Virus record (IMG/VR): IMGVR_UViG_3300021164_001199
Span: 1-64,000 of that record
Strand: one strand, 5' to 3'
Length of the DNA: 64,000 nucleotides
Source: a virus
Lineage: Duplodnaviria; Caudoviricetes
In this document: in pieces, positions 12,864-59,021 of the stretch
How positions within the stretch are numbered: position 1 is the stretch's first letter
Layout: each line of letters starts with the position of its first letter
The notes under the pieces: generated by a model
Told to the model about the DNA's origin: nothing
Seen by the model: only the letters and a program-made list of their open reading frames with translations
Database searches by the model: none
Program-made: the position numbers and the translations under genes

Positions 12864-13222
12864 GTTTTATCAAAAGTTTCAAATTAGATTTATATGCCTG
12901 CAAGATATCTGTTATTGTAGCTGATGATATATTTGAAGAAGAGAAAAAACTATATAATAAATATGGTGAAGACTATGATGATTATATGAGTGCTGATGGT
13001 CTATGTTTATATTTTATTCATGACCATTATTATATACTATTAAAAAAAGATGCGATTACTCACAATCTTATAGCACACGAATTATATCATACTGTTTGTG
13101 CTATCATGGATCATAGAATAATAGATGATGAAGAAGCAAGAGCTTGGTTGATTGGATATGTTACATCACTTATTTATCAAGCATTTGATAAAGCAAAAAT
13201 TGAAATAAAAAATGGCCACTAG
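12860..13222 (+). CDS. Small zincin-like metallopeptidase
   Basis: IAHELYH (HExxH) plus a downstream DEEARAWL glutamate. Confidence 0.6.
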   Translation: MSFIKSFKLDLYACKISVIVADDIFEEEKKLYNKYGEDYDDYMSADGLCLYFIHDHYYILLKKDAITHNLIAHELYHTVCAIMDHRIIDDEEARAWLIGYVTSLIYQAFDKAKIEIKNGH

Positions 13223-33931: not shown

Positions 33932-36900
33932 ATGGAAGATATCTTCAAAGATTCAAACACAGTTATTACTCCAGAACTAAATGATTTTTATTCTAATTCA
34001 TTTTTAGTAAAAGGTAATCCAGCTGATGAAAATGTATTACCTGCACCACAAGTTGGTGGTGATAATGATGATAAAGCTAATGTTAGATCTTTAATTAATA
34101 AGCTTAATAACATATCTGATTTATCTAAAAATAATATATCTAATCTACAAGCTACTTATACAGATCCATTAAAGGATGCTAAAATGTTTGCTTTTAATCC
34201 TACTTATAAAGGATTAAATTGGGATAGATATAAAAGTCATTCAGCATTTAATGAATTAGGATTTGATCCATTTAGAGATAATGAGAAGTTTTATAATGAT
34301 AATACTTCTATCTATTCTGATATTACTAGAGGTATTCAAGGTTTTGGTAAAATAACTGCTAGTGCCTTTATGAATACTGCAGCAGATTTACCAAGATTAT
34401 TAACAGGTAATTGGGATCCTAATACAGAAGCAGCAAAAGAAACAGAAAGAATTATGGCTGAGACAATGTCCACTAGAGGAACATTTGGTTCAAGTGTAAT
34501 TAACTTTGGTATCAATGCTGGTTTTACTGTAGGTATTATAGGTGAATTAATAGCAGAAGAAATGATACTTGGTTTAGCTGGTTTAGCTGGTGCACCAGAA
34601 ACTGGTGGTGCTTCATTAGGAGCAGCTGGTTATTTAATGGCAGTTAGAGCAGGATTAGCAGGTAGTAAAATTGCAGGACTTGGAAAAACAACAGGAGCAT
34701 TATTAAAGACTATTAAAAATTTAGATAATGCTGTAGATGCAAAAAAATACTTCAATCAATTTGGAAGAGGGGCTGCTGAATTTTTAAACCCATTACAAGC
34801 AACTACTGACTTAGCTAAGAATTTTAAAAACTTAAATGGACTAGGACAAACAGCTAGAGCTGCTAAAAGCTTTGGTGCCTTTTTTAAAGATATAAGAGAT
34901 ATTAATAGATCTTTTTCTGAAGCTAAACTAGAAGGTGGGTTTGTTCAAAATGCAATGTTTGAAAAACTTTTAAATGAAGCTTATGCAAATGGTAAAACAC
35001 CAACACCAGAAGAAATAGATAAAATTAAAGAAGCTTCATTACATGCTGGTTATGTGAATCAAATGGTAAACTTTCCAGTTATACATTATACTAACAATAT
35101 TGCATTTGGAAATTTAGTTAAACCACTTAATAGATTAATTGGATCTACAGAAGACTCAATTAAAATATTAAATAAGACTATAACTGCAGACATAACTAGA
35201 AAAAAAGTATTTCAAGAATTAGCAGGAGGTTGGAAAGAGTCACTTAAAAGAGGTTTTAATCCTAAACTAATGGCTAAGAATAGTCTTAACTATTTTTCAG
35301 CAAACTTAGCAGAAGGTTTACAAGAATCATTTCAGGAAGCATCAGCAATTGCTATAGAAGATTATTATACTAAACAGTTTATTAATGAGAATAGTATAGT
35401 AAGAAATCAATATGAATTAAGCATACTTGATAGTTATGGTAAAGGTATTGGTGAACAATTTAGTGCTCAAGGTGCTGAGACTTTCTTAAGTGGTTTCCTA
35501 ATGGGAGGACTGATGGGTAGAGGTGGTAAGATAGCTAGAAAAATAGGTACTGGATTAAATGAAAGTTCAAATAAAGTAAAAGACTTATTTTATTCTAAAA
35601 CTGATCCAGAAAAATATAAAGAAATTAAAGAAAAAAGAGAAATAGCAAAAGCAGAAAAAGAAGCTAAGATTAAAAAATATGATGAGTTTAGAACTAATCT
35701 TATTAATAGTCTAAATGATTTTTATGAAGATGCTGGTAAAATGTTCTCTCGTGATTTAGCACATATGTCAGCTCAAGAAATACTTGATGCTAAAGCTAAA
35801 CAAGCACAAGAAACTGGTGATGATAAATTCTTAATTGATTTTACAGATGCATCATTATTTGAAAGTGTAAGTAATGCTTTATACTTTGGTAAGTTTGATT
35901 TATATCTAGAACACTTAGATAAAATTAAATCATTAGATGATCAAGGTTTAATGGAAGCTATGGGTATTGATGATGCTCAAGCTGGTAGACAAAGATTAGA
36001 AGTATCTATTGAAAGAGCAAAAGAAATTAAAAGTAGATCAAAGAAGTTCTCAGAAAACCCTTATAAATATAATGATTATAAAGAGGGCACAGATGAGTAC
36101 AATGAAATGGTTTTAATGCATAATGCTTTTGAAGATGCTAAACAATCAGCAATATTTACCCCATATCAATTTGATAGGGTACTATCAAGAATGAATTCAA
36201 TTGCTGAATCATTTTCTAGTATTGATTTAGTAGCTAATGGTAATGCAACTGAATTCCTACATCTATTTGGTGTAGATAATATTCTTAATGAGGTAGAAAT
36301 TTTAGATAATGAAATACAATCATTAAAAGATGGTACCAGAGAGAATGAAGCATTAGCTAGAAGAAAAGAAAAACAAATTAAAGATTTAGCTGAAGTACGT
36401 GATGCAATAATTGCTCATAGAGCTTATTTTAAAGCATTAAAAGAAACTGATACAGTTGATACTTCATATGAGAAAAATCTTAAAAATGCTTTTATAAAAT
36501 ACTTAGGGTCTTATGGTGAAAATAAAAGTAGAATATTAAAGTCTGATAAACTTGATGATGCTTTCAAACTATTTCATGATTATTATAGATTAAATATAGA
36601 TGCTGAATATCTTAGTAAGAGTGTTGCTATAGTAGCAGATCCCGATTTCTTAAGACAAGAATCTTTAAGAAGATATAATGCATTAAAGAAACAATATACA
36701 AATAGAAAAGAATTAATAAAAAAGAAATGGGATACTTATCTTAGAAAGATAGGATTAAATGGTGTATTCCAAAAGTTATATGAAGCTGGTTTTGCTGGAG
36801 ATCCAGAACAAATGGTTGCATATAACTTATCAGGAGGAAAAACACCTGTAAATCTATTTTATAGAATATCTGACTTTAGTAGAGTAACTGCAGCTGATGT

Positions 36901-39298
36901 AGAAGACATTAAAAAGATTAAAGAGATTTTTGATGAGTATGAAGATATAACTGGTATAACTAAAGCTAAAGAAGAAGCTGCAAAAAAAGCTGCTGAGGCT
37001 GCTGCTAAAAAACTAGAAGAAGAAGCTGAAGCTGCTAGAGTAGCTGCAAAAGAAAAAGCTCTTGATATATATACTCCAGAAACTAAAGCTAAACTAGTAG
37101 CAGACTATGAAAACTATCCAGAGAAAGATACTGAATCTTTTGAAGAGTATTTAGAAACACCTAGAGCAGCAGTTATAATCTATAAGGAAAAACAAAAAGA
37201 ACAACAACTAACTCCTGCTGAATTATTAGGTCAATTTATATCTGGTTTAGCTACAGATCAAGGATTAAAAATAATAGAAGCTAGTTTACTCAAATCAGGT
37301 AAATTTATTATTTCTAATATATCTAGAGCTACTTCAGAACAAAGACAAAAAATAGATTCAGATATAGAAAAACTTAGAAATAAATATACTGAAAAGAATA
37401 TTGTAACTAGAATAGAAAATGGTAATCTTATTATTGAAGTAGATATAAGACCAACACCTATTAATATAAATGAACCAACTCCAAAAACATTTCAAGAATT
37501 AAAAAGTGAAATAGAAAGACTAAGAGCAGAAGAAGAAACTAAGTATGCTGCTATGTCTGATCCTAATGATGCAGTAGCAAGAGCTAAAATTTATGAGGAG
37601 TATAATGTTTTAATAACTCCTTTAATAAAAGAAGCAGAAGCAGACATAAAAGCAAGAAAAGAAAAAGATATAAATTCAATATCAACAGATCCTATTAAGG
37701 AACCTTCTGAGTATAATGCTTATATATCTAAAATCAATGATATATATAATGCAGAACTAGAATCTTTAAAGAAAAAAGAAACACCACAAACTAAAGTACA
37801 ATCTTCTACAATAGAAGGTCAAGTAGGTACTTCTAATTATACTGTAGAAGAAGGATTAATCTTTTATGAAAATGAAGATGGATCTAGAAGACCAGTAGCT
37901 AATCCTGATGGTAGACCTATTTTAGATGTTATTAAATCTGATATAGAAAATAGAAGAAATGAAGAGTTAACAAAATATGATGAAGGAAAATTAACTAATA
38001 CTGAAATAAAAGTTAATAATTATAAAGCTTATATACATTCAACCCCAACAAATGTTATTTTAAAAATAGGAGATAGATATGGAGAAATAATTTTTGAAGG
38101 TTCTGGTATTTATGGGTATAATCTTGAAAAACTTATAAATGCAGAAACAGGGAATACTATAGAGCAACAGCATAATGGAAGAGATGTAATACAATCTAAA
38201 TATAATGAAGAACTAACTGCTTTAGAATCTGAACAACCTAAAAAAGAAGAGCCTGAAGTAAAAGAAGCATTTCCTTTATCTCCACAGTTTGAAGGTAAGA
38301 TAATTTACTTCTCTCCAGGTTTAGGAAAAACTACATTAGTAAATCAGTATCCAGATCAGTTTGTAGATATGGATGTATTACTATATGAAGAATTTAAAGA
38401 TGAACCTGGATTTGAAGATGCAACACCAGAAACTTTTGGTACAGCTATTTCTGCAATTTATAAAAATTTAAAAATTACTGGACAACCTGCTGAGGCATTT
38501 AATGTAATTAAAAATAAACTTTATGATAATGCATTTAAAAAAGCTAAAGAATTAACTAAGCAAGGTAAAACAGTATTAACAGGATCTGGTGCCTTTATTT
38601 CTAAAGCTGATTTTAGTGTAAAAGCTAATGATGAAAAAATATCTAAGGAACAGTTACTGAATAAAAATCCAAATATGGATGAAATAGATCTTTCAGAAGC
38701 TTTAAGTGGTATAAGAAGAAATGAAAATAGAAACAATATATTATTATCTGTTGATAAAGATTCATTCATTCAATTCTTAATGGGTAACTACGATATTCTT
38801 AAATATATCAATGAAGATATAACATTTAAACAACTTGATGAATTAGGTAAATTTATGATGGCTCCATTATCTCCAGAAGTTATGGAAGCTTTTAGTAAAA
38901 AAATGGAATATTTTCAAGCTAGAGAATTATTATTTAGTAGCTTGCAGCCTGGTGACACAGTCATTATATATAATGAAAAAACTGGTAAAAATTATACAAC
39001 TAAAATAATGAATAAAAAAGATGCAAATAGTTATAATTTAGAAATTGTACCTGATGGAAGTTCATATCTAATGCGTAGTAATCTTCCCAACTTAATAAAT
39101 GTCATACCAACACAAGGTACTAGTGAAGGTATTAAAATAGATGAAGTAGATAACTCAGATGCTGAAGATAATAAAACAAAAGTAAATGATGTTGCTACAG
39201 AAACAGAAAGATTAAAAGCTTTATTAAATGAATCATTCAATGATGATGATTTATTTGAAGATGCTGAAGACCCTAATAATTGTAAAATTAAAAAGTAA
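33932..39298 (+). CDS. Giant virion/ejection protein (1788 aa) with a Gly/Ala-rich membrane-like segment and a degenerate P-loop domain
   Basis: Hydrophobic stretch GIIGELIAEEMILGLAGLAGAPETGGASLGAAGYLMAV. IIYFSPGLGKTTL...FVDMD at about 38300-38374. Single Cys at aa 1784. Confidence 0.55.
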   Translation: MEDIFKDSNTVITPELNDFYSNSFLVKGNPADENVLPAPQVGGDNDDKANVRSLINKLNNISDLSKNNISNLQATYTDPLKDAKMFAFNPTYKGLNWDRYKSHSAFNELGFDPFRDNEKFYNDNTSIYSDITRGIQGFGKITASAFMNTAADLPRLLTGNWDPNTEAAKETERIMAETMSTRGTFGSSVINFGINAGFTVGIIGELIAEEMILGLAGLAGAPETGGASLGAAGYLMAVRAGLAGSKIAGLGKTTGALLKTIKNLDNAVDAKKYFNQFGRGAAEFLNPLQATTDLAKNFKNLNGLGQTARAAKSFGAFFKDIRDINRSFSEAKLEGGFVQNAMFEKLLNEAYANGKTPTPEEIDKIKEASLHAGYVNQMVNFPVIHYTNNIAFGNLVKPLNRLIGSTEDSIKILNKTITADITRKKVFQELAGGWKESLKRGFNPKLMAKNSLNYFSANLAEGLQESFQEASAIAIEDYYTKQFINENSIVRNQYELSILDSYGKGIGEQFSAQGAETFLSGFLMGGLMGRGGKIARKIGTGLNESSNKVKDLFYSKTDPEKYKEIKEKREIAKAEKEAKIKKYDEFRTNLINSLNDFYEDAGKMFSRDLAHMSAQEILDAKAKQAQETGDDKFLIDFTDASLFESVSNALYFGKFDLYLEHLDKIKSLDDQGLMEAMGIDDAQAGRQRLEVSIERAKEIKSRSKKFSENPYKYNDYKEGTDEYNEMVLMHNAFEDAKQSAIFTPYQFDRVLSRMNSIAESFSSIDLVANGNATEFLHLFGVDNILNEVEILDNEIQSLKDGTRENEALARRKEKQIKDLAEVRDAIIAHRAYFKALKETDTVDTSYEKNLKNAFIKYLGSYGENKSRILKSDKLDDAFKLFHDYYRLNIDAEYLSKSVAIVADPDFLRQESLRRYNALKKQYTNRKELIKKKWDTYLRKIGLNGVFQKLYEAGFAGDPEQMVAYNLSGGKTPVNLFYRISDFSRVTAADVEDIKKIKEIFDEYEDITGITKAKEEAAKKAAEAAAKKLEEEAEAARVAAKEKALDIYTPETKAKLVADYENYPEKDTESFEEYLETPRAAVIIYKEKQKEQQLTPAELLGQFISGLATDQGLKIIEASLLKSGKFIISNISRATSEQRQKIDSDIEKLRNKYTEKNIVTRIENGNLIIEVDIRPTPININEPTPKTFQELKSEIERLRAEEETKYAAMSDPNDAVARAKIYEEYNVLITPLIKEAEADIKARKEKDINSISTDPIKEPSEYNAYISKINDIYNAELESLKKKETPQTKVQSSTIEGQVGTSNYTVEEGLIFYENEDGSRRPVANPDGRPILDVIKSDIENRRNEELTKYDEGKLTNTEIKVNNYKAYIHSTPTNVILKIGDRYGEIIFEGSGIYGYNLEKLINAETGNTIEQQHNGRDVIQSKYNEELTALESEQPKKEEPEVKEAFPLSPQFEGKIIYFSPGLGKTTLVNQYPDQFVDMDVLLYEEFKDEPGFEDATPETFGTAISAIYKNLKITGQPAEAFNVIKNKLYDNAFKKAKELTKQGKTVLTGSGAFISKADFSVKANDEKISKEQLLNKNPNMDEIDLSEALSGIRRNENRNNILLSVDKDSFIQFLMGNYDILKYINEDITFKQLDELGKFMMAPLSPEVMEAFSKKMEYFQARELLFSSLQPGDTVIIYNEKTGKNYTTKIMNKKDANSYNLEIVPDGSSYLMRSNLPNLINVIPTQGTSEGIKIDEVDNSDAEDNKTKVNDVATETERLKALLNESFNDDDLFEDAEDPNNCKIKK

Positions 39299-42200
39299 TG
39301 GCTTGTCTTACACAAAAACAATTAGATAACATATTTAAATCAATTGGTAATTATTTTAAAAATTTAAATGATCCAAAAGATTATAATCACTTAGAACATC
39401 TATTATATATTTATAATAAAGGTATATCTAGTGGAATGACACCAGCAACAGCTCTATCATATGTGCAAGCTGTACCTAAACTAGTTCAAGCATATAAAGC
39501 TATAACTGGAATTAAATTAATTAAAGATGAAAATATTCAAGTAGCAAGACTTGAGTCTGATTTTGAAGATAATGATTTAAATTTTATTGCAGATACTTTA
39601 GAATTAACTAGTGAAAAAGAACCTGAAGAAATTACTGAAGTAACAACAGATGAGGTAGTTGCACCTAAAGGTCAAACATTAAAAATATTTACTGCTAAGA
39701 CAAATGATCCAACTTCTACTACTGGTCCTGATGAAAGAAAGGATGATGGTACTCAAAGTATAGATCCTAAGAAAACTTGGTACCACGGATTTACACGTAA
39801 ACTTATTGCTAATGCTGTAAGTGGATTTGATGGTTCTACTATAACAATTAAAAATCATACTGGCTTTAAACTTAAAGCTATCAAAATGTCTGAGATTCCT
39901 TATGAGGAATTATATGATTTTCTAAAAACTCAAAGTTTATCTGAAGAGCAATTAAAAGCAATATTAGATAGAGACCAGATTGTAGCATTAGTAATTACTG
40001 ATAATAATGGTAAAATATTAAAGTTTAATCAAGATTATGCAGTTGCACCTGATGGAAAGTTAATATACTTTCAAATGAGAGATACTAACTATGATTTACT
40101 AGATGTTGTAGGAGCAAGAGGTGTAATTCAAAGTGTTGAAGAAATATCTAGTAATTTAAATATATCTTATAAAGAAGCAGAAAGAAGAGTTAGAGAAGGT
40201 GTAAATAATTTAAGAGCAATCCAGAAAGGAGTATTTGAAAATAAAAATGTAATACTTGATATTACTGGAGGCAGTCGTGGCTACTTACCTTTACTAGAAA
40301 AAAATATTAAACTGAATTATCAAACTGCTCCATCTACATTAGGTCAAGTAGTTGCTAATATGGATTACTTTGAAATTAGTTACAATACTACTGGTGGAAC
40401 AACTAATAGATTTATTACTCTATATGGTAATACGATTAATTTATTTACACGTAAGGCAAATGATGAAGAATTAAGTCTATTTAGTGATGCTGTTGTAGAA
40501 AACTTATTAAATTCTGATGATACTACTGTAGGTTTAGAATTCTTAAGTCAGTATTTAGCAATGACTAATTCTAATAAGAATGAACTTAGAAAATTACTTG
40601 AAAGTATTAAAGAATCAAGAGATAAAGAAAATGGTGTAGATAGATTAAAAAAATATTTAAAAACAGCAGGTTCTAATAAGAATGGTTTTTGGTTAACATA
40701 CCAAAAAGAATTACCTGAATATTTTGGTATTAAGAATGGAGAACTTGCTATTATCAATAGAGAAGAGTATTATAATTTTTGGAAAGATGTTTTAAAAACA
40801 GCTTTACCATTAAATGATGATGATAAAGTACAATTGTTTAATTCATATTTAAATTTTGAAATTGATAATAAAACTAAAGAAACTTTAGGATTAAGTAAAT
40901 CTGAAGAACCTAAAATAGAAAAGAAAACTAGTGCTATTGTAGCAAATACAAATTTTGACATAGATTCTTTAATGAAAGAAAAAGGAATATCTTCTGAAGC
41001 TACAAAGAAACAAATTCAAGATGCTTTAGATTGGTATGAAAATAGTCCTTTAAAAAATGTAGTACCTGTTAATGTACTTTTTAATGTTTTAAATTCAAAT
41101 TCAAAAGCTGTTTGGGAAAGATCAGGAATTACTTTATTTTTTGGTTCTAACTACACAGATTTATATCATGAGGCTTGGCATGCTTTCTCTCAATTGTTTT
41201 TAACAATAGATGACAAACAAAAGTTATATGCTGAAATTGGAAAAATGTCTGGAACATTTGCTTTACCAGGTGGTGGTAGAATTAAATATTCAGATGCAAA
41301 ACCAGTTCAAATAGAAGAGTTATTAGCTGAAGACTTTAGACAATATAGATTATCTAATGGTACAAAAGTATTTGGGCAAAGACCAGTGACTAATAGAATC
41401 TTTTCTCAAATTTTAAAGTTATTAAATTGGTTATTTGATAAAGTTTCATATCAACAAACACAAACAGATTTTAATTCATTAAAGAATGTAAAAACATTAT
41501 ATGATAAATTATATCTAGGTAACTTCATAGATATGAAACCTGATGCTAAAAATATCATGTTTGGTTCATTAGCATCTCCTATAGGTTCAGTAGAAAATGG
41601 TACTCAATTAACTATTACTCAATCAAATGAAATAGCAGATACAATGGATGCTATTATATCTGATGTATTAGAAAATATTGCAAAAGAAACTGGTAAAGTT
41701 ATTATTGGTAACTTTTTAAATTCTAAGAATTCAATTAAATATGTTTATGGTAAAATAAAAGAAGCTTTTGAAAAAAGAGTAGTTGAATTAAGTGAAGATG
41801 TAGTAGCCAATGAGTATGCTATAAACTTATTAAATATTGCTATAACTGACTTTGGAAATATAGATGATACAATAGATAACAAGAAATTAAATGATAGCAC
41901 AACTATATCGTATCACCTTAGAAGATCTAAGATATTAGATTTTAAAACTAAAACTTTAGATGATAATGATGAAAAAACTGTTGACTTAGATACACATATT
42001 AAAAAAGAATTAGCTGATAATGGTGAACTATCTTTTGAAGAACTAGCAAATGAAAGAGTATTATTTCTTATTAAAACATTAAAACAATATGATTCTAATG
42101 GTAATGTAGAAATGAATGACTTAGGCTTTCCTAAACTTGTTAAATTCAACAAAGTATTAGGAATTCTAATTAGAGAACTTAATAATAACTCAGGGCCTAA

Positions 42201-51200: not shown

Positions 51201-51861
51201 TACTGATAAGTTTTTAAGACATAGGTTAGGTATTATTGTAAATCCAAGATCTAAAATAGTTACTAATATTGCAGGATTTTCAATTGATAATTCTAATAGA
51301 ATTAAAAAGTATATATCTCAAGGTATATCTAAACCTGTAACAGAATATCCTAATGTAGATATTTTTGATGATACTCTGAAAAAAGTAAATGATTCATTAT
51401 ATTTAATTGATCTAGATTTAATAAGACAACAAGGAAATCAAGCTGCTTTATCTGGTGATAAAAAATATTTTACTAATGCAGTTTTAAAATTAGCTGAGAC
51501 ACATGATGATAAATTGTTTATTTTTACAGCAGCTGATCAAATTCCAGTAACTGTTAAAGCAAGTAATATATCAATCTTTAATACACCAGAACAAATTAGA
51601 AATGCTGAATTTGAAGGACCTATTATTTTATCAAGCAAAGGATTAAAAGGAAAAACTGATGTTGGAACTGCTATGTTATCTGAAGCACTATTTGAAAAAT
51701 ATAGAATTAAAAATCCTGGATTTCAAAAAGGAATTGCCAAACTTACTATTCGTGAAATGATGAATAGTGACTCTTTTATAACATCAATAGATGTAATTGA
51801 TAGTATTAGATTAAAATCTCATGCTATATTAGACGAATTAAATAACTCTTGTAATATATAA
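39298..51861 (+). CDS. Single-chain virion RNA polymerase (two-barrel, crAss/phi14:2 gp66-like), 4187 aa, with an N-terminal zincin and inserted accessory domains
   Basis: Catalytic GGDFDIDK (DFDID at 45448-45462), RIPVQG (45331), DGQG (44170), KFSLMPL, GKRALGIGA and VDVAKDP. Zincin HEAWH (41167-41181) with EELLAEDF. AlkB, ASCH and NADAR motifs at about 48490-50110. Confidence 0.9.
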   Translation: MACLTQKQLDNIFKSIGNYFKNLNDPKDYNHLEHLLYIYNKGISSGMTPATALSYVQAVPKLVQAYKAITGIKLIKDENIQVARLESDFEDNDLNFIADTLELTSEKEPEEITEVTTDEVVAPKGQTLKIFTAKTNDPTSTTGPDERKDDGTQSIDPKKTWYHGFTRKLIANAVSGFDGSTITIKNHTGFKLKAIKMSEIPYEELYDFLKTQSLSEEQLKAILDRDQIVALVITDNNGKILKFNQDYAVAPDGKLIYFQMRDTNYDLLDVVGARGVIQSVEEISSNLNISYKEAERRVREGVNNLRAIQKGVFENKNVILDITGGSRGYLPLLEKNIKLNYQTAPSTLGQVVANMDYFEISYNTTGGTTNRFITLYGNTINLFTRKANDEELSLFSDAVVENLLNSDDTTVGLEFLSQYLAMTNSNKNELRKLLESIKESRDKENGVDRLKKYLKTAGSNKNGFWLTYQKELPEYFGIKNGELAIINREEYYNFWKDVLKTALPLNDDDKVQLFNSYLNFEIDNKTKETLGLSKSEEPKIEKKTSAIVANTNFDIDSLMKEKGISSEATKKQIQDALDWYENSPLKNVVPVNVLFNVLNSNSKAVWERSGITLFFGSNYTDLYHEAWHAFSQLFLTIDDKQKLYAEIGKMSGTFALPGGGRIKYSDAKPVQIEELLAEDFRQYRLSNGTKVFGQRPVTNRIFSQILKLLNWLFDKVSYQQTQTDFNSLKNVKTLYDKLYLGNFIDMKPDAKNIMFGSLASPIGSVENGTQLTITQSNEIADTMDAIISDVLENIAKETGKVIIGNFLNSKNSIKYVYGKIKEAFEKRVVELSEDVVANEYAINLLNIAITDFGNIDDTIDNKKLNDSTTISYHLRRSKILDFKTKTLDDNDEKTVDLDTHIKKELADNGELSFEELANERVLFLIKTLKQYDSNGNVEMNDLGFPKLVKFNKVLGILIRELNNNSGPKSIKAKLEALRDNGQHEIGELLIKLGDLDLVKEDDKADIMNAWILFANSFNTTSLPLIITRLEQTTNRDENTFEYSLYNTQGKLDLSNTKRKFIQEFSINRLNRFTSEFEGLKVIDKNKLENFNIQEYNNLQFGDPKKFNKAVLFYNAIGIPVGKSEQYKELLSNKTVLEGVTYIYNMLMEYKSKGKNSDFIPDHINYLTKSKEGNQSNVIDTVIQAYLKVEDIVSTFSLLNAEGNRQYENVLNNTITITKNGLNDVNTFQEFYSKPEFAHFNPAINPMVRNSQVLKKLFGEDLTGRIDTLNLSNYSGIQLDKDGVNINSVSITETDTATKFYIDLYSYINNGYVELPRHADKKMALAYHTSKNPHFITPTSYYQSPELSDDKFFKIMFGYLKAEHERVQDIRNNTISDLDYFPEFKNQGKEFLIFHDILTPELKNKLYDTSIEELAALNSDTQLHKEIKDRIVAYLSNLTSKNKVVFDEMNYLDADSIKKLIKPGFVNQGLSNDEKANRLVRAYSANSFISFVESTILFYGDIAAYNLLKEEFHKRNASAGSTGRTFISDPEFLYAYKKHFGNKYANKQGYKSYGVADNGVLRTAVFDDIQVQNDDLIKEYKILFEKQYTKDYTAFGLTGKALTDKVEAEVKKSIAKYFEKEIKEGDGQGWLTFDAYRMLAKLSNEWSPAQEELYNKIVEGKDIGINEIVKNFPPRKYQYYGPIVTEKYHLNALHKFSLMPLIPSVIKDTNLAQIHERMMNSNVQYATFKSGSKTATRTYENGKSDQFYTDLSVRKAMPKDAALLINEINIKYLRNQVSINDEFKEEVVFSTQMRKLIINELFEKGIPLNANVEELVKSYLRNIERYIEFNKQELRDEIELKSDGKFNAESLAKIIKIEMSRRDFPEHLQDTVTKIENGNFAYDLSYALNAEDIEKILFSIVNKRIVRRKVNGEPLIQAAVSGFESERPDLTNATEEDLVKYRADELKFYRVDPVTGKTLPMQVKIALQGKFKKLLYLEHNGQVIGTRDNLNKALKDSEWMKVHGKMVTLVGVRIPVQGFNSMEMMEVAEFLDESAGNIVVAPTQIVSKSGGDFDIDKLSIFFPNIEKVGNKIFLSRYDRSIKESTGELKGKISDLKKRIKEIKGDSQKEFENLKKQKQFSKLENTEKQLINQLYENYNRLLAENNNLIELWSKESANTRKGKILSNEIDELKNISISFEDKFQELTLAEAELKQNLKVYYGAFYEDKQQKFWDTQDVKLQVVFDEMNIIKEKLINSSNSAYENDITQDIINILSAPEIAAALVRPNDTDLVQPLSKDMLKYFAKSYNPKENFNTDPSIMEFVDDLETNPEKKNKIRPVSPTRIFETRYNIYKQYSNSVGKRALGIGAVDNAYNALFNQVGLYLNDEYEHVRTDKKTGKDITQIRKNRLLLSHNKMNNGKISLSNIFNTEGTKISDLINQLINGWVDVAKDPWIAYVMGTPEASPSLLYLVQAGVPFKQAVYFLANPLVRQYFDTLKKMESPLAALSQSIEENDYGDPIIKSKLPENEFRLKAEMLGYGKSDYPNGHQLYDRIQDYTKGFENITEKELFDRLEASIQPGWSRNETDMAVLAHFIEILDVAKGLFKIKSSLNFDTKTSATMYDAYARSQKRDLIVSDNEDEVNILKIFPKHKLKALYEDTILHNFDVSDMQMEMFKDLYGVRNNPNLNKYLYEFYKNSLIFGSNIFDRVKQIFGGNDKMISEFKNDFTTAITLSALRDIGVTETMYKGYEVVQVNSKEYEKVINKKVNKSLPTDKLYFAKNNYTKDTPEKYPKYGFIFTENAEKLGTNYNVSTTQAVIRTNKKGERNPNALAIVTKKMQKAGANFTNSEADFNQFKELNTKLINDIVDSKFERIIVPTGGFAMEKAQLPTRFAEWLQNELQTKLGIATELVDRGTGMSGLTNSKKYEEPTTQQSTNPLVEAGIKPTDMYGNAAKDIQMASESTQFIGFGTIMKEGNVSSTDKYAKAWGNKANTGEYTANDIIMVSGSGNFGRGGVDKTEEAAAIKKTLSEKYKPLLLKAIEAGASFRIGNQYAKGNLSDETVAKFLQQKGYTEEKLNGYSRWNAPVKPKGEKVADGIYVNQEGLSPQEELELFELIRPVLEEQAVKSNAGKNAPKMAGLGLNWDYVNGVTKRRDNGFEKIDIQDPLRKNSAYGWFTSSSTGEKLGSISKRMVELMSKATGIDVTDYDGSIINIYNSDSFIGNHPDIDESKTAEKYPVVVVNIGGPGNIVLGSDKVNLKSGAGYVFGVDGKNRTISHSTYASPIKGTLPAITTAMDGETLKAGSYRVSITMRRVMPLKKGMPESPKVISKKPSTSANEFDIADKLTPIEQNFKDGSGGRQMQPQFKGKSTMDLIMSGDRTRTTRAKTDVGRMLKDYNLSKIEDLVGKIIRMTDNTGKQVYTRITKVAPFTQEYQDSTWKKEGWEKSVTDKLVGQYPYAIEFEVVNKPTQSSTSTNIGPETIINVYSKDKNGFEDLSNFAERSVKLGNETFRTPEGAYQAMKIWFTNAALLRTPISKENLEILEKLKTASGLEAKALGNNITDLSKDTWDRDSSGVMKNILTLSFQQNSKALDKLLSTGNATLTHTQDKTKWKTEFPKLLMEVRNELRGEQPKVNEPVEVEQVPTKGTNIPGYIPTGVFIQDDKMYVDKDTLYEQFETQEYSTNNTQAYGTIITTPEGGKFYLQKVSPRTFNDNFSEYVKFVMEREYQRSVLKASDITNFDELLKTTTAKLITPKKVQINIAELQNKLKTDVAFVGNKYGLEDLVDVYSGEVIYDNLKPGFRKPGIYEQYTITEERGSAVKYKIIESYLTNKALKNILNSYSYMQDPENSYARQLLDLVKKYKLAKDYSLLDALTLNKSNGNDIFNLVFKEGKPDSNTIDNYIDELMRLSNPDVEKHPDIHINKEISEFFDKFQYYVLLSSGFSSGNKYSLNSIISQEKILNYTNSDAIKKATNRILNDSDYYGKVEKTLNIFTDKFLRHRLGIIVNPRSKIVTNIAGFSIDNSNRIKKYISQGISKPVTEYPNVDIFDDTLKKVNDSLYLIDLDLIRQQGNQAALSGDKKYFTNAVLKLAETHDDKLFIFTAADQIPVTVKASNISIFNTPEQIRNAEFEGPIILSSKGLKGKTDVGTAMLSEALFEKYRIKNPGFQKGIAKLTIREMMNSDSFITSIDVIDSIRLKSHAILDELNNSCNI

Positions 51862-51863
51862 TT

Positions 51864-54800
51864 ATGGCTTGCAAAATAATTAGAAATGAAGATGGTACTG
51901 TAGATAGAGTACTTGCTGATAATAATGAACGTTCAATTCTCTATAATCAAATTAGAGAAACAACAACTGAAGAACAAGCCTTATTAGATTATTCTGGAAC
52001 GTTTACAGAAGAGTTTAAAAATGTAATTGAATCATTTAAAAACTCAGAAGATAGTACTAACATATATGATGAGAATGGAGAAGTCCAGTATTACATATAT
52101 GATTATATTATGCATCCTGAAAAGTTCTTTGGTCAAAATAATGTAGTTAATACTAAATTTCAAAAAGATAGAAATAATAATTTAAGAATTGCTGGATTAT
52201 CTTATTTAGTAGGCACTTTAGAAATGCTTTCTGTGAAATTTGGATTATCTTATGAAGTTATTTTTGATGAAAGTAATCCTAACAAAGGATATATAGATGT
52301 AATATCTTATGGTAAACCCACTATTATAATAAATGCTTCTAAAGCTTCACATGACACTCCTTTACATGAGTATGGTCATATTTTTATAAATCTTATTAAA
52401 TTATCCAATAAAAACTTATATTCAAATTTAGTAAAAGAAATATTAAATACAGAAATAGGTAAAAAAGAATTATCCGATGTTAAAAATTATTATTCAAATT
52501 ATACTTTAGAAGAACAAATTGAAGAAACAATAGTTGAACTATTAGGCAGATATGCTAGAAATGAGTTTGATCCTGAATCAGGTATACATAAAACAATTAA
52601 AAAAATATGGAATACTATATTAGAATTTTTATCTAAGACATTCAATGTTGAAATTAAAGATATTTCTCCAAACATGTCAATTGAACAACTTTCTAAACTT
52701 TTAAGTAATCCTAATGTAAACTTTAATCAAAAATCTTTCATAGAACAAAATTTAGAAACTATTAAGAATACTAACATTAAAAATAAAGAAAGATTAGAAA
52801 ATGAATATACCGATTTTAAAAAGATTAATAATCCATCATTAATAAGAGAAAATGGTTATACGTTAATTATAAACAAAAATGAGTTTGATATATTTAAAAA
52901 GGAAATAGAAACTACCATCAATAGTATAAAAGAATATAGTAAAAGTCAACTATTAATAGATATTAATAATATTAAATCTGAAATTACAACTTTTCAAGAA
53001 AGAAACAATTTTGATTACAGTAGATATCCTATGTTTACTAAAATTTTAAAATTTTTTCATCCAACTCCAAACACTGCATTATATGTATTAGATAGAGAAA
53101 TACAAAATGGAAATTTAGATAATGAAATTAAAGATAATTTAAAATTTTTAGATAAATCACTAACTGAAATAACACAAGATGTATTATCTGGATATATGAT
53201 AAGTGATCAATTAGGAATAAAAATTCCAGATTTTTATAAAATGTCATCTTATACATTTAGCAGTTTTAATTCTGTTGAAGAAATTGAAAATAGTTTTATA
53301 GATAAACTTTCTGAATTGAATAAAATAATTCAAAATCCTGAAAAATCTGACTCTTATTATGATCGTAGTTTTAAATTTTCAACAGAAACTGATACATATA
53401 AAGTATATGGAAAATTTAAAGATGGAAATATAAGTATTAGTTTTAGTTCTGATAAGTATGGAATGAAAGATGTGAATAATAGTCTTTTTTTCAAAATTCT
53501 TCCTAAAGTTATAGATTCAATTTCTTATATGTTTTCAGATTTAGAATATAACACTATATCATTTACTCCCGTTTCTGGAGAATCATCTAAAGGTAGAGAT
53601 TTAAGGCTTAAAGGATATAATATTTTTGCTAAAAGACTTTTTGGACAATTTAGTTTAGTAGCAGAAAATGATAATACTACTATTATTCCTATTCCTGAAA
53701 TGTTTAAAAATCAAATACATATAAAAGAAAATATGTATCAGAAAGACAGGACTGATATACCTGTTATACAATCAGCCCAGTTTAATCAAATACAAAATGA
53801 TACTAATGAAAATATTGCAGTTGAAGTATTAAATAAAATTGCAAATAGAATATCTAAAAATCTAAATGGGGTGCCTTATAATAGTATTGAAGAAGCTGAT
53901 GCTGTATCTTTGTTAGCTTCTACTAAAGAGAAATATACTGGTCAACCAGCATTCTTTTATAATGGTCAAGTATACTTTATAAAAGATAAATTAAACTTAG
54001 AAAACTTATTCCATGAATTTAGTCACCCTTTCATTAAGGCTATTAAGAAAACAAACCCTGGTCTTTTTAATAAATTATATGACAATCTTATTCAAACAGA
54101 AGAAGGTCAAAAACTTAAAGATCTAGTTAAAGAATATTATAACCATGATGAAAATTCTGAAGAGTTTAAAGAAGAAATGCTAGTAAGAGCATTAACTACT
54201 AGAGCTAGAAATAATGAATTAAAAGTTCAAGAGAGTTCTGGTTTTGATAAGTTAATGAATCAATTGTGGTATGCTGTTAAACAAATAATACGTAAGATAT
54301 TTGGTAAGGTTAAAATAGACAAGTTAAATGAGAATACAACTCTAGATGAACTTGTAAAAATGCTTAATAATGAATCTTTTGAAATTAGTGCAAAAGATAT
54401 TACAGATTCAGAAAGAGCAGATTTTAATAATCTAAAAAAAGAGTCAGTTAAAGAACTAATATCTAAAGCTAATGCTACATTAGTTCAAAGTAATATTGAC
54501 AAATTATTTAAATTAATAAGGTCTGGTCAACAAGTTTTAGAACAAGGTGAAACAAACTATCCTGGCTTAGAAGAAAGTATTTCAAAAGAAAAATTAGATA
54601 GTCCTTTTCAAGAAGAATACAATGCAATATCTAGATATCAAACATATACTAAAACTAATGAAGAACCTTTAGATTTAGTAAACTATAGAGAAAAACAAAT
54701 TGAAGGTTTAGTTTTATCTATAGAAGCTTATAATGACTCTATTGAAAAAATAATTCTTGAAATTAATAGATTAAAATCAGATCCCAATTCAATTGTAACT

Positions 54801-57800
54801 ATTTCTAAAAATATGTATTTCTTGAAAATACTTAAACAAACTTTACAAACGTTTGTGGAATTAAGACAAGAAATGACAGATGCAGGAGTTAATGTAGCTA
54901 GTCCCATATTTCAATTACTAACTAAAGCAACTATTAATGCTGAATCTGGTATTAGAATAATATATGAAGAAAATAAGAAAGCATTACCTTTAGTATTAGC
55001 ACCACATTTAAAAGGAATCAATGAAGTACTTATTAAAGAATTTAATAAAGTAATTGAGGAAATGGTTGCTAGAGGTTCATCTCGTGAAGCAATTGCTGCT
55101 AAGGAAAGAGAAAGAGATAGTTATCTTAGAGATGAGAATACATTAGCTAAAGTAATGGTTGGTGAAACACCAGAGCCAGCAGGATTAGGTTTAAGTACTT
55201 TAGTTGAAAGTGCTGTATCTAGTCCAGATGAATTAATATCAAGTTTTGCGTTATATGTTAAGGAAGCTTTAATTGATGTAGAACTTAATGCTACTGCAAA
55301 CTTTAATGATTTCTTAGCTGATACTAGAAAACTTTTAAAAGACGCAGGATTAGATGATTTTAAATTAGTATCCAAACTTGGTAAGATTATTACTTTTAAA
55401 GAAGAACTAGGATATACTGACCCTAAAACAGGAGAATTCAAAACTCATGAAGTTCATACATTTTTAAATAAATTTAAAGGATATGAATTAGTATTATCTA
55501 AATTTAAATATGATATAAATAAAGCATTAGAGAATGGTGATTCAGAATTAGCGGCATCTCTTGAAATGGACCGTGAGGAATGGAAAAGAACATATATGCA
55601 TGATAAATGGAAACCTGAAGTTTATAAAATATATGATGTCTTCAAAAAAACTTATGTTAACTCTGCAGGAGTTACTGTTGAAATTGGCAAAATGGCCAAA
55701 GAAAGATATAATAAAATAATGGATAATATCAATAATGGTATTAAACTCATTGATGATGAATTAGAGAGAGTTGAAATTCAGAATAGAATGAAAATTGATA
55801 CTCTATGGGTAGATTATAAAAAATTATTTAGTAAATATGATGATGATGGTCTTCTCAAAACAGGAGATGAAATGGCTATTACAGAAACATTACTAGAATA
55901 TAGAGCTCAAAGAAAGGAATATTTTGAATGGGAGTCAGATGAAAGTCCTGATAGTATGCCTATTCTTAGATTTAAGAAAGCTAGAAGTTTATTTATAGAT
56001 CAACTATTAACTAAGTTTGAGAGATCTGATCTAGAATTTGCTCAGAAGTTACAAGAGTGGGATGATATGAATACTAGAAAGGTTATTGATAAACAATTCT
56101 ATGTAGATAAAGCCTTAATACTTGAAAAAATAAATGAAATATATAATAGTTTATCAGGTTCTTTTGCAGAAGATTCTAAAATTGTAAAAGAAACTAAAGA
56201 GTATTGGGATTTAATTATTAATCAACTGTATGCTTACAGAGATGAGGAAAATCATCCTAATGGACTTTTAGTTTCTAAAGAAAAAATAGCTGAGATTAAA
56301 AAAGCTCAAGAAAAAATCCAGGAACTACAAGACATGATTAAAAATGGAAATGGTTTATCTAGAGCAGAAACAAGAGAATATAGAAGATTAGATGAATTAG
56401 TAAAACGTGGAATTGAGTTATCTGCAAAAGACTATTCTGACTATGAAAATTTAGAAATTAGATCTAATTTTTCTTCAATACCAAAAGGAGTTAAAAGTGA
56501 TTTAAAGAAATTATATGCTGATCTTGAAAATTTACAAAGTAAAAAAGCTACTGATTATTATTTAGAAGTTTATAATTATCAGATTGACTTACATAATCGT
56601 AGACAAGAAGCAAAAGGATTACCTGTTACAGTGAAACATTTTGATAGATTTGCTATTGATTATGATGCATTAGATAGAGGGTTTGTAGAGAGTGTATTTA
56701 AAAAAGATCCAGAGTTTAAAAAATGGTTCATGGCTAATCACGTTGAAGTAGAAAGATGGGATGATGAACTTCAAATGAGAGTAATAAGATTTGAAAGATT
56801 ATTCTTATGGAATCAAATTGAACCTAGAGACTCTAAATATAAAAAAAGAGTTCAATGGAGAGATGAAACAGGTAGAGATATATTTGTATGGGGATTACCT
56901 TCTTTATCATATTACAAACAAAATATTAAACCAGAATATGCTACTGAAGAAATTGTAGGAGAAACTGTAGATAATAGAGGTAACTATTTGCCAAGAGAAA
57001 ATGTAGTTAATAGTCCTTATATTAATCAAGCATATTTTGATTTAAAAAGAGATAATATAGGTGCATTTAACTTACTTGAAAAAATTAAAGAGTATCATAT
57101 TAAGTTTCAAGAAAAAGCTGATAAATCTGATAGATTATGGATGCAAGTTCCTAGATATGAAAAGACTAGTAAAGAACTTACAGAAACTAATAAGTTTTTT
57201 TCTGATAAAACTTCAACTGCTAAAGCTGCACTTAAGAATTTTTTAAATAAATTTAAAGTAAATGCTGAAGATACTGATGAAGGTTTAGGTGTTGAAGATA
57301 AATTTAAACTTACAAGATTAGACTTCTTTAATGATGATGAACAAAAAATTCATATATCAGGTAAACCATTAATAGATGAAGATCAAGTATCATTAGATGT
57401 AATTACATCTGTGCTTAGACATATGCATTCAGTTGAGAGAGCTCATAAATTAGCTGAGATTGAACCAATTGCAAAAGCATTAATGGAATTAATGAATGAT
57501 CCTAAAAATCAACCTAAAGATATTACTAAAGCTAGTATGTATCATTGGATTACTCAAAAGATACCAATATTTGCTAATAAAAAAGGTGAGAATATTAGAG
57601 CTAAGGCAATTAAAGGATTAATAGACAGAACTTTCTATAATGTTCAGCAAACAGGATTTGGTTCTGATGCTATAGTTCTACAGAAATTATCTAAAGTAAT
57701 GATGAAAGCTGCATCTTTTGGATTCTTTGCCTTAGATATACCTTCAGCTGTTAAAAATAGATTTGGTCAACAGTTACAACAAGCTATTGAATTAGCTGCT

Positions 57801-59021
57801 GGAACAAGTTATGATGGAAAGAGTTTCCTAAAAGGGAAAATTATTGCATCTAAAGCTATGTTAGAAATATCTGGATCTATTTATAGCAAAGGTAAACTTC
57901 CATACTATGCTCAATTAGTAAATGCTTTTGATCCATCGCAAGGTATGGCTATGGATAAACTACCACTGTATATTACAAGAACAATTTATAAGGATGTTGC
58001 TTCTCCAGGAAACATTTTAATGTCACCTAGAAAATTCTTAGAAATTGAAGGAACATTAGAGTTTTTCTTTGGTGTAATGGAATTTACTAAAGTAGATCAG
58101 ACTATCAATGGTGTTACTACACAAATTCCATATCATGAAGCTTTTGAGTTAGTTAATGATAGACTAAAATTAAGAGAAGGTATTGATGAGAAATGGGATT
58201 TAGGAGGAAGTGAATTCAAAAGAAAAAGAATATTCATACAGGAAAAGCAAAATATTCTAAATGGAGTCTATTCTAAATTTGATCAACCAGAAGGTAATAG
58301 ATATTTGTTCTATAGAATGTTTATGTTCTTAAGAAAATTCTTCATTACAGGTATGGTAAATAGATTTGGTTTTTCAGGATCCTTATTTGCTCCTAGATTT
58401 AGAAGAAATAATGCATCTCAAACTTTAGAAATGGGATACTGGATACAAAGTGCTAGAGCATTAGCAAAACTATTAGTTACTACAGGTAAACACTGGCACT
58501 TTATGAGACCATCTGAGAAAGGTGCTGTATATAAAGCTTTAACTGAAATGGCATTGTTAACTATATTGTCTGCTTTAATTCCAATGTTATTTGGTTGGGA
58601 TGGAGATGATGATGATAAATATGAGAAACTAAGGAAGAGACAAGGTGGACCATTAGGTTCAGATGATTTTGAAATGGGTGGATGGTTAGCTAATCATTTA
58701 TTATATCAAACAATGAGTGTTGCTTCTGAGAATATGCAGTATTATAAAGTAGGATTCTATTCTGATATGCTTAGTAACTTTAACTTAGCAAACGGACCAT
58801 CATTACAAACTTATGGTAAAATATTAGGTGATATTATTAATATGGTAACAGATGATGATGCAGCATATTATAAAAAAGATGTTGGTCCATATTCTTGGCA
58901 AAAAGCAGAATCAGCTAAAATTCTTAATCACGTAGCTAAAATGTTCTCATTAACTGGTAAGACATTAGATCCATCAAAAGCAATTCAAGATTTTAAATCA
59001 GCAGAAAATATATATAAATAA
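51864..59021 (+). CDS. Giant polyvalent virion protein (2385 aa) with two zincin-like domains
   Basis: HEYGH (52365-52379) and HEFSH (54012-54026), each followed by EE. Long helical body and a C-terminal hydrophobic helix (MALLTILSALIPMLF). Single Cys at aa 3. Confidence 0.65.
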   Translation: MACKIIRNEDGTVDRVLADNNERSILYNQIRETTTEEQALLDYSGTFTEEFKNVIESFKNSEDSTNIYDENGEVQYYIYDYIMHPEKFFGQNNVVNTKFQKDRNNNLRIAGLSYLVGTLEMLSVKFGLSYEVIFDESNPNKGYIDVISYGKPTIIINASKASHDTPLHEYGHIFINLIKLSNKNLYSNLVKEILNTEIGKKELSDVKNYYSNYTLEEQIEETIVELLGRYARNEFDPESGIHKTIKKIWNTILEFLSKTFNVEIKDISPNMSIEQLSKLLSNPNVNFNQKSFIEQNLETIKNTNIKNKERLENEYTDFKKINNPSLIRENGYTLIINKNEFDIFKKEIETTINSIKEYSKSQLLIDINNIKSEITTFQERNNFDYSRYPMFTKILKFFHPTPNTALYVLDREIQNGNLDNEIKDNLKFLDKSLTEITQDVLSGYMISDQLGIKIPDFYKMSSYTFSSFNSVEEIENSFIDKLSELNKIIQNPEKSDSYYDRSFKFSTETDTYKVYGKFKDGNISISFSSDKYGMKDVNNSLFFKILPKVIDSISYMFSDLEYNTISFTPVSGESSKGRDLRLKGYNIFAKRLFGQFSLVAENDNTTIIPIPEMFKNQIHIKENMYQKDRTDIPVIQSAQFNQIQNDTNENIAVEVLNKIANRISKNLNGVPYNSIEEADAVSLLASTKEKYTGQPAFFYNGQVYFIKDKLNLENLFHEFSHPFIKAIKKTNPGLFNKLYDNLIQTEEGQKLKDLVKEYYNHDENSEEFKEEMLVRALTTRARNNELKVQESSGFDKLMNQLWYAVKQIIRKIFGKVKIDKLNENTTLDELVKMLNNESFEISAKDITDSERADFNNLKKESVKELISKANATLVQSNIDKLFKLIRSGQQVLEQGETNYPGLEESISKEKLDSPFQEEYNAISRYQTYTKTNEEPLDLVNYREKQIEGLVLSIEAYNDSIEKIILEINRLKSDPNSIVTISKNMYFLKILKQTLQTFVELRQEMTDAGVNVASPIFQLLTKATINAESGIRIIYEENKKALPLVLAPHLKGINEVLIKEFNKVIEEMVARGSSREAIAAKERERDSYLRDENTLAKVMVGETPEPAGLGLSTLVESAVSSPDELISSFALYVKEALIDVELNATANFNDFLADTRKLLKDAGLDDFKLVSKLGKIITFKEELGYTDPKTGEFKTHEVHTFLNKFKGYELVLSKFKYDINKALENGDSELAASLEMDREEWKRTYMHDKWKPEVYKIYDVFKKTYVNSAGVTVEIGKMAKERYNKIMDNINNGIKLIDDELERVEIQNRMKIDTLWVDYKKLFSKYDDDGLLKTGDEMAITETLLEYRAQRKEYFEWESDESPDSMPILRFKKARSLFIDQLLTKFERSDLEFAQKLQEWDDMNTRKVIDKQFYVDKALILEKINEIYNSLSGSFAEDSKIVKETKEYWDLIINQLYAYRDEENHPNGLLVSKEKIAEIKKAQEKIQELQDMIKNGNGLSRAETREYRRLDELVKRGIELSAKDYSDYENLEIRSNFSSIPKGVKSDLKKLYADLENLQSKKATDYYLEVYNYQIDLHNRRQEAKGLPVTVKHFDRFAIDYDALDRGFVESVFKKDPEFKKWFMANHVEVERWDDELQMRVIRFERLFLWNQIEPRDSKYKKRVQWRDETGRDIFVWGLPSLSYYKQNIKPEYATEEIVGETVDNRGNYLPRENVVNSPYINQAYFDLKRDNIGAFNLLEKIKEYHIKFQEKADKSDRLWMQVPRYEKTSKELTETNKFFSDKTSTAKAALKNFLNKFKVNAEDTDEGLGVEDKFKLTRLDFFNDDEQKIHISGKPLIDEDQVSLDVITSVLRHMHSVERAHKLAEIEPIAKALMELMNDPKNQPKDITKASMYHWITQKIPIFANKKGENIRAKAIKGLIDRTFYNVQQTGFGSDAIVLQKLSKVMMKAASFGFFALDIPSAVKNRFGQQLQQAIELAAGTSYDGKSFLKGKIIASKAMLEISGSIYSKGKLPYYAQLVNAFDPSQGMAMDKLPLYITRTIYKDVASPGNILMSPRKFLEIEGTLEFFFGVMEFTKVDQTINGVTTQIPYHEAFELVNDRLKLREGIDEKWDLGGSEFKRKRIFIQEKQNILNGVYSKFDQPEGNRYLFYRMFMFLRKFFITGMVNRFGFSGSLFAPRFRRNNASQTLEMGYWIQSARALAKLLVTTGKHWHFMRPSEKGAVYKALTEMALLTILSALIPMLFGWDGDDDDKYEKLRKRQGGPLGSDDFEMGGWLANHLLYQTMSVASENMQYYKVGFYSDMLSNFNLANGPSLQTYGKILGDIINMVTDDDAAYYKKDVGPYSWQKAESAKILNHVAKMFSLTGKTLDPSKAIQDFKSAENIYK

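What the first reader, a model, noticed from the sequence alone, without database searches (positions are those of the whole stretch)
33932..59021. Possible disulfide-linked injection train: three giant virion proteins (8360 aa) have only four cysteines, all at the gene junctions
Seen by manual scan of the translations: the 1788-aa protein has one Cys (aa 1784, PNNCKIKK*, 39281-39283). The 4187-aa vRNAP has two (aa 3, MAC, 39304-39306; aa 4185, NSCNI*, 51850-51852). The 2385-aa protein has one (aa 3, MAC, 51870-51872). The outer ends of the block have none, and the genes are tightly coupled (TAATG overlap; 2-nt gap). Established: injected proteins can be Cys-depleted (the N4 vRNAP has no Cys), and crAss-like cargo is thought to pass through the tail at least partly unfolded. 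Inference: the terminal Cys residues join A-B-C head to tail by disulfides (or a two-chain metal clasp) into one linear chain. Such a chain could be packaged stoichiometrically, ejected in order and released by reduction in the cytoplasm. It would act as a polyprotein assembled after translation. I know of no description of this mechanism.
Basis: partly seen in the sequence, partly recalled or inferred. Interest (0 to 1): 0.93.

Follow-up and report, generated by a model that had tools for sequence, protein, structure and literature searches.

The report
Terminal cysteines chain crassvirus cargo proteins
Three giant proteins that this crAss-like phage probably packs and injects (one is its RNA polymerase) carry cysteine only at the ends that face the next protein; relatives keep this rule wherever the genes are separate and drop it where they are fused, which suggests the proteins are tied head to tail into one thread, a link I did not find described.

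Summary
Observation confirmed exactly: 8360 residues, four cysteines, all at facing ends. The genes are the crassvirus polymerase cargo block (phi14:2 gp67/66/65; crAss001 gp47/50/49).

The rule is conserved. In 123 de-duplicated loci, 219 of 219 separate-gene junctions have Cys on both sides and none is discordant. Outer ends lack it (0/65 and 0/6), and internal Cys is 0.007%. It is lost at fusion seams, appears at both ends of inserted cargo modules, is ignored by inserted homing endonucleases, and survives inversion of gene A. phi14:2 and crAss001 follow it.

This points to a head-to-tail inter-chain cysteine link, most likely a disulfide locking short docking segments, which would make a polyprotein after translation.

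I found no paper describing it. The virion gel I found was run reducing and gp66 was purified with DTT, so the bond would have been missed. This scan noted the same pattern before in other crassvirus genomes. Its claim for split N4-like polymerases was not reproduced here.

The parts
33932..39298 (+). Cargo protein A, 1788 aa, 201 kDa; positional equivalent of phi14:2 gp67 / crAss001 gp47; first link of the chain
   Evidence: 36 homologues: 34 C-terminal Cys only, none N-terminal, 0 internal Cys in 77,967 aa. Equivalence to gp67/gp47 is mainly by position; direct tblastn of A against cultured phages found nothing
39281..39283 (+). Cys1784 of A (5th from the C-terminus), proposed partner of B Cys3
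   Evidence: A|B junction rule 93/93
39298..51861 (+). Cargo protein B, virion RNA polymerase, 4187 aa, 476 kDa, DFDID at 2051, plus accessory NADAR (over Pfam cut-off), 2OG-Fe(II)-like and DUF7831-like (below cut-off) domains
   Evidence: 112/120 homologues have Cys at both ends
39304..39306 (+). Cys3 of B
51850..51852 (+). Cys4185 of B, at the end of an amphipathic helix-like segment; proposed partner of C Cys3
   Evidence: B|next rule 107/107
51864..59021 (+). Cargo protein C, 2385 aa, 277 kDa; positional equivalent of phi14:2 gp65 / crAss001 gp49; last link; two HExxH motifs
   Evidence: 49 hits: 43 N-terminal Cys only, 4 none, 2 odd partial-domain hits
51870..51872 (+). Cys3 of C, at the start of an N-terminal beta-hairpin followed by three helices
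   Evidence: invariant in alignment A5; AlphaFold2 model pLDDT 80; no PDB match

Best explanation
A, B (vRNAP) and C are the crassvirus polymerase cargo proteins. SHOWN by comparison: each free end that faces another chain member carries one Cys, and the two outer ends and the fused seams do not. INFERRED: (1) the C-terminal helix of protein n docks on the N-terminal module of protein n+1, with a different pair at each junction, which sets order and 1:1:1 stoichiometry during head assembly. (2) After lysis the paired thiols oxidise to one disulfide per junction, as other crassvirus virion disulfides do, giving a linear chain of about 950 kDa, equivalent to a fused polyprotein. (3) During ejection the cargo must partly unfold to pass a channel under 50 A; non-covalent contacts would be lost but the S-S links hold, so the chain threads as one, probably A first. 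(4) In the host cytoplasm the bonds can be reduced, or the chain may stay tethered; fused relatives show that release is not always needed. Internal Cys is purged to avoid wrong cross-links. New payload modules join the chain by acquiring a Cys at both ends.
For: 219/219 junctions concordant, 0 discordant; outer ends 0/65 and 0/6; internal Cys 52 in 733,177 aa. A+B fusions lose the N-terminal and seam Cys but keep the C-terminal one (L060, L086, L162, L163; 8 Suoliviridae). B+C fusions keep the N-terminal Cys and have none in the last 20 aa (crAss002, cr8_1, ctcc615). Inserted cargo modules of 88-1157 aa carry both Cys, giving chains of 5 or more links (L141, L155, L168). Four of the five Pfam-confirmed GIY-YIG-family inserts lack a Cys at one or both ends. 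The rule holds with gene A inverted in DAC15, cr106_1 and crAss001. Cys-flanking sequences covary between partners (partial rho 0.24 and 0.32, permutation sd about 0.04) but not between non-partners (-0.09 to 0.05). His is rare near the Cys (7/219, 5/219), so there is no conserved metal co-ligand. crAss001 virions contain inter-subunit disulfides even when grown anaerobically, and cargo must partly unfold to exit (PMC10172136).
Against: No bond was observed or modelled. Partner covariation can also come from DNA adjacency. Gut members have many internal Cys (up to 26 in cr130_1), so purging is not universal. Two loci have a C-type gene beside unrelated genes with no adjacent partner; the partner was not traced (L202, L203). 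One GIY-YIG insert (L047) has Cys near both ends (10 and -8, plus one at 22), so that control is not perfect. No thioredoxin or glutaredoxin was found in this 79% complete genome, so oxidation would be uncatalysed or host-driven. gp66 alone is active in vitro under DTT, so the link is not needed for catalysis. Unbroken N4-like vRNAPs and their neighbours manage with no Cys.
Confidence: 0.66

Rival explanations
1. The facing Cys pair binds a metal (Zn), with acidic side chains or a second copy of the junction completing the site. Same head-to-tail topology, different chemistry; it could form in the reducing cytoplasm during assembly.
For: Assembly happens in a reducing cytoplasm (established knowledge). 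The C-terminal flank is acidic, net -2. About six copies of each protein are packed, so two junctions could share a metal. The rule holds in phages of anaerobic gut hosts.
Against: One Cys per end, no conserved His or second Cys; Cys position slides from -1 to -10 and +3 to +8, which is loose for a fixed metal site; anaerobically grown crAss001 still has disulfides.
Confidence: 0.12
2. The link is a real disulfide but serves only co-packaging, stoichiometry or keeping the subunits together after entry, not ordered threading.
For: All comparative evidence concerns pairing, not timing. N4 gp50 domains stay tethered after entry (PMC13434306). Fused relatives never separate.
Against: Non-covalent docking would be enough for co-packaging; a covalent lock matters mainly when the proteins unfold, as in ejection (inference). 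Strict end-to-end polarity keeps the chain linear and unbranched.
Confidence: 0.14
3. The Cys are used for thioester chemistry (trans-splicing or ligation into a true peptide bond) or for a small modification such as a lipid.
For: The topology matches fusion exactly.
Against: The N-terminal Cys is at 3-8 with variable residues before it, so it has no free amine. Pfam showed no intein or Hint domain and no signal peptide is evident. A reducing gel of crAss001 gave bands near 150 and 270 kDa, matching monomer sizes, with gp47/49/50 detected (PMC6235969; a >300 kDa band was also cut and I could not see its identity).
Confidence: 0.04
4. Homotypic or intramolecular bonds: A-A through C-termini, C-C through N-termini, and B cyclised.
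For: The window alone cannot exclude it.
Against: In A+B fusions B keeps its C-terminal Cys without an N-terminal one, and in B+C fusions the reverse. B N- and C-flanks do not covary (-0.09).
Confidence: 0.03
5. By-product of gene-junction DNA (overlap, ribosome-binding site) or chance.
For: Genes are tightly coupled in the window; TGT is common in AT-rich genomes.
Against: Gaps range from -13 to +1314 nt, Cys position varies, both codons are used, the rule survives inversion, and neighbouring junctions such as cargo-2|A lack it.
Confidence: 0.01

Closest known systems
Crassvirales polymerase cargo block: Cellulophaga phage phi14:2 gp67-gp66-gp65 (bioRxiv 10.1101/2020.03.07.982082) and crAss001 gp47-gp50-gp49 (PMC10172136, PMC6235969)
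   Same: Three giant late genes after the muzzle and cargo genes, the middle one a DFDID two-barrel vRNAP. phi14:2 has the identical four-Cys pattern (gp67 C1797/1797; gp66 C3, C2179/2180; gp65 C3). crAss001 has gp47 C2339/2341, gp50 C5, C1334, C2404/2412, gp49 C5.
   Different: The papers read do not mention these cysteines. The window's B is about twice as long as gp66 and carries accessory domains.
Coliphage N4 gp50 / Pseudomonas DEV gp71 (Schitoviridae vRNAP)
   Same: Giant ejected polymerase, Cys-purged, beads-on-a-string NTD-RNAP-CTD passing a narrow tail (PMC11445570, PMC13434306). The A-B-C chain would be the multi-gene equivalent; PMC13434306 leaves that relation as an open question.
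   Different: Unrelated T7-type enzyme; one polypeptide with no Cys at all, including the ends.
Two-chain translocated proteins held by one interchain disulfide until reduced in the target cell (AB-toxin principle; from my own knowledge, not tested)
   Same: A single disulfide keeps chains together through translocation of an unfolded cargo.
   Different: Those usually arise by nicking one chain or by A-B subunit assembly, with two parts; here separately encoded proteins are joined end to end into an extensible chain. Works-like analogy only, no homology.
PKS/NRPS docking domains (own knowledge)
   Same: C-terminal segment of protein n pairs specifically with N-terminal segment of n+1, making separate genes equivalent to fused ones.
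   Different: Non-covalent, no cysteine lock, unrelated sequences; the C N-terminal module had no PDB match.

Membership tests
Crassvirales polymerase cargo block | Giant virion RNAP with DFDxD motif homologous to phi14:2 gp66 | tested here: met
Crassvirales polymerase cargo block | Flanked by two giant genes, downstream of a crass muzzle gene | tested here: met
   (crAss_MUZ E 4.5e-35 for 13212-18113)
Crassvirales polymerase cargo block | A and C homologous in sequence to gp67/gp47 and gp65/gp49 | tested here: inconclusive
   direct tblastn finds nothing; weak indirect hits through homologue sets for gp67, Bcn18 and cr108_1
Crassvirales polymerase cargo block | Packaged in the virion and ejected | not testable with these tools
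   shown for phi14:2 and crAss001 homologues in papers, not for this phage
Order Crassvirales | Terminase, portal and major capsid phylogeny | not tested
   the 460-aa ORF 2549-3931 had no PHROG or Pfam hit
Disulfide-linked head-to-tail chain | One Cys at each facing end, none at outer ends, co-varying with fusion, insertion and rearrangement | tested here: met
Disulfide-linked head-to-tail chain | S-S bond between the two residues in the virion | not testable with these tools
   complex prediction unavailable; no non-reducing data found
Inter-chain zinc clasp (Rad50-hook type) | Two ligands (CxxC or Cys/His) per chain | tested here: not met
   one Cys per end; His within 5 aa in 7/219 and 5/219
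Split intein / trans-splicing | Hint domain and free N-terminal nucleophile | tested here: not met
   no Pfam hit; Cys at 3-8
Schitoviridae (N4-type) vRNAP | T7-type single-chain Cys-free polymerase | tested here: not met
   B is the DFDID two-barrel type; its tblastn and PDB hits include no N4-type enzyme

The most novel reading that the evidence does not exclude
Crassviruses build a post-translational polyprotein: separately encoded ejection proteins are stitched end to end by single disulfides into one unbranched thread of about 1 MDa that is drawn through the tail in gene order. Any new payload joins by gaining a cysteine at each end, so this is a modular, redox-reversible injection train.
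Probability: 0.55. Interest if true: 0.93.

Novelty: categorically new. Interest (0 to 1): 0.86.

Why it matters
How crassviruses, the most abundant human gut phages, eject megadaltons of cargo in order is an open question; the structural paper only guesses at 'interactions with one another'. The rule gives a cheap, direct test in two cultured phages: one non-reducing gel and four named residues. It explains why the block is freely fused or split across families, and ties the three crassvirus proteins to the single-chain N4 design. It also gives an annotation rule: terminal Cys mark true starts and chain members. If true, it is a way of making a polyprotein that I did not find described for any phage. 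The genes themselves are known; the novelty rating is for the linkage, which remains unproven at the bench.

Tried and rejected
Complex prediction on the B C-terminus with the C N-terminus (alignments A6, A5) was unreachable six times and then declared unavailable: no verdict.

Foldseek of the C N-terminal model found no PDB match. PHROG and Pfam gave no family for A or C.

I looked for a complete A+B+C fusion, which should have no terminal Cys; none was found (cr130_1 gp79 is A+B only).

Earlier notes claim Cys clasps at split N4-like polymerases. In 160 N4-like loci nearly all were single-chain, and the seven breaks seen had no paired facing Cys. These scans favoured close Schitoviridae, so the claim is neither confirmed nor refuted.

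I first took three Cys-free splits of B for introns. They look like single premature stops in a continuing frame (L137, L145, L169) and were excluded as junctions.

No thioredoxin or glutaredoxin was found in the genome; the Erv/Alr search had no positive control.

Literature searches for crassvirus cysteine or disulfide terms found only tail disulfides and N4-type Cys depletion.

Full report
OBSERVATION. A script confirmed every count and coordinate. A (33932-39298, 1788 aa) has Cys1784 only; B (39298-51861, 4187 aa) has Cys3 and Cys4185; C (51864-59021, 2385 aa) has Cys3 only. Other proteins of the 94-kb genome have 1.4% Cys. The upstream Cys-poor genes (2328, 1482, 499 and 918 aa) have no terminal Cys.

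IDENTITY. B has DFDID at 2051 and matches Crassvirales virion polymerases, including phi14:2 gp66 (22% over about 600 aa). A crass muzzle gene lies upstream. This is therefore the known three-gene polymerase cargo block of a crAss-like phage. A and C are assigned mainly by position.

CONSERVATION. Of 120 B homologues (24-95% identical over the core), 112 have Cys within 15 residues of both ends, 7 at the C-end only and 1 at the N-end only; the exceptions look truncated, mis-started or fused. There are only 20 internal Cys in 426,543 aa. Of 36 A homologues, 34 have a C-terminal Cys, none an N-terminal one, and none an internal one. Of 49 C hits, 43 have an N-terminal Cys only.

JUNCTION TEST. 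I fetched 160 loci around the polymerase core; 158 had the motif and fell into 123 clusters at 85% core identity. Both facing ends had a Cys at 93 A|B, 107 B|next and 19 module|next junctions: 219 concordant, none discordant. Twelve 'neither' cases were A+B fusions, where the upstream gene is not a chain member, or premature stops. Outer ends were free: 0/65 C-termini of C and 0/6 complete N-termini of A. Background internal Cys is 7e-5 per residue, so about 0.14% of 20-aa windows would hold one by chance. The clusters are related and not independent, but the natural experiments below are separate events.

NATURAL EXPERIMENTS. (a) A+B fusion: no N-terminal Cys and the C-terminal Cys kept. Four environmental fusions of 4065-4746 aa have no other Cys at all. 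Eight Suoliviridae all end in Cys and are followed by a gene starting with Cys. (b) B+C fusion in three Intestiviridae: the N-terminal Cys is kept, none lies in the last 20 aa, and A ends in Cys in the two where A was in view. (c) Insertion: extra modules of 88-1157 aa, one an ART-PolyVal protein, carry Cys at both ends, giving chains of five or more links. GIY-YIG-family endonucleases inserted at the same places mostly do not (L047 is ambiguous). (d) Inversion: in DAC15, PhiCrAssBcn18, cr106_1 and crAss001, gene A lies on the other strand, away from the start of B, yet both Cys stay. phi14:2 has exactly the window's four-Cys pattern. An independent scan for the C-type N-terminal motif gave an upstream C-terminal Cys in 23 of 25 loci; the two exceptions are a relocated gene. 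Together these exclude a DNA-level cause and a homotypic or cyclic arrangement: the Cys mark free ends that would be joined in a fused gene.

JUNCTION ANATOMY. The N-terminal Cys is at 3-8 and the C-terminal Cys mostly at -1 to -10. Flanks are modestly amphipathic (helical moment 0.27 and 0.29 against 0.21 and 0.22 in shuffles), and the C-side is acidic. B-type and C-type N-termini are separate sequence families. Partner flanks covary after controlling for core similarity and non-partner flanks do not, although adjacency on DNA could also give this. The first 70 residues of C fold as a beta-hairpin and three helices with Cys3 at the very start (pLDDT 80), with no PDB match. There is no conserved second ligand, which favours a disulfide over a metal site.

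MECHANISM (inferred). Docking orders the proteins during assembly; oxidation after lysis locks each junction; the roughly 953-kDa chain stays continuous while unfolding through the tail; cytoplasmic reductants may release it. Supporting context from papers: crAss001 virions have inter-subunit disulfides, carry perhaps six copies of each protein, and need partial unfolding for exit (PMC10172136). Cys depletion of ejected proteins is known for Schitoviridae and ascribed to passage through the periplasm (PMC11445570). A first is suggested by its strict lack of internal Cys, also in the first 1400 or more residues of the Suoliviridae fusions, and by a hydrophobic stretch near aa 200. This is weak.

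LITERATURE. The crAss001 structure paper has no 'cysteine' and describes disulfides only in gp57 and tail parts. The gp66 preprint, the 2026 N4 paper and a Crassvirales review mention neither word. gp66 was purified with DTT and crystallised with TCEP, with the terminal residues untraced. The crAss001 virion gel was reducing. So the published work I could read would not have seen the bond. Most subscription papers were not searchable.

EARLIER SCAN NOTES. Several notes report the same rule in other crassvirus genomes; they are not independent support, and I re-derived the result from my own loci. Notes on split N4-like polymerases were not reproduced in my sample.

VERDICT. The sequence rule is real and held in all 17 named Crassvirales records I examined (Steigviridae, Suoliviridae, Intestiviridae; Crevaviridae not checked). 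My odds: head-to-tail Cys link of some chemistry about 0.9; disulfide about 0.8; disulfide chain serving ejection about 0.6. Interest 0.86.

Noticed in passing
window 617-859, 847-1575, 4028-4573, 4760-5395, 8371-9423: Five late-region proteins end in Cys as their very last residue (one in CxxC); possibly the virion-shell disulfides seen in crAss001 tail hubs.
   Followed up: no
window 31173-33929: 918-aa cargo-like protein has only Cys128 and Cys133, kept at the same positions in L001 and L002; likely an internal pair.
   Followed up: partly
window 18110-25096 and 25140-29588: Two further giant Cys-poor proteins (2 and 6 Cys, in close pairs) between the muzzle and cargo genes; the 2328-aa one has a weak glucosaminidase hit, an HExxH and a hydrophobic stretch. 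No terminal Cys, so not chain members.
   Followed up: partly
window about 47570-50110 (B aa 2758-3606): DUF7831-like, 2OG-Fe(II)-like and NADAR domains inside the polymerase protein; B length varies from about 2800 to over 5500 aa among homologues.
   Followed up: partly
L372-L376, L174-L179, L007: Gut crassviruses tolerate many internal Cys in B and C (up to 26), but Suoliviridae fusions have none in the first 1400 or more residues.
   Followed up: partly
L007:14896-27633 (crAss002 gp33): The annotated start is probably 32 codons too early; Met33 gives the usual Cys3 start.
   Followed up: partly
L006:18202-18511 (cr108_1): Fused A+B polymerase interrupted by about 300 nt that looks like a group I intron; no Cys at that break. 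Not tested against Rfam.
   Followed up: no
L202, L203:1492 onward: C-type gene with N-terminal Cys sits beside unrelated genes; its partner must lie elsewhere or be absent.
   Followed up: partly
L176:25158-25427, L179:14396-14665, L006:29445-29714: Annotated thioredoxin genes lie near the cargo block in three gut phages; none found in this genome.
   Followed up: partly
L021, L048, L121, L168: Inserted modules often end in a copy of B's last 110-140 residues, suggesting they join the chain by duplicating a junction.
   Followed up: partly
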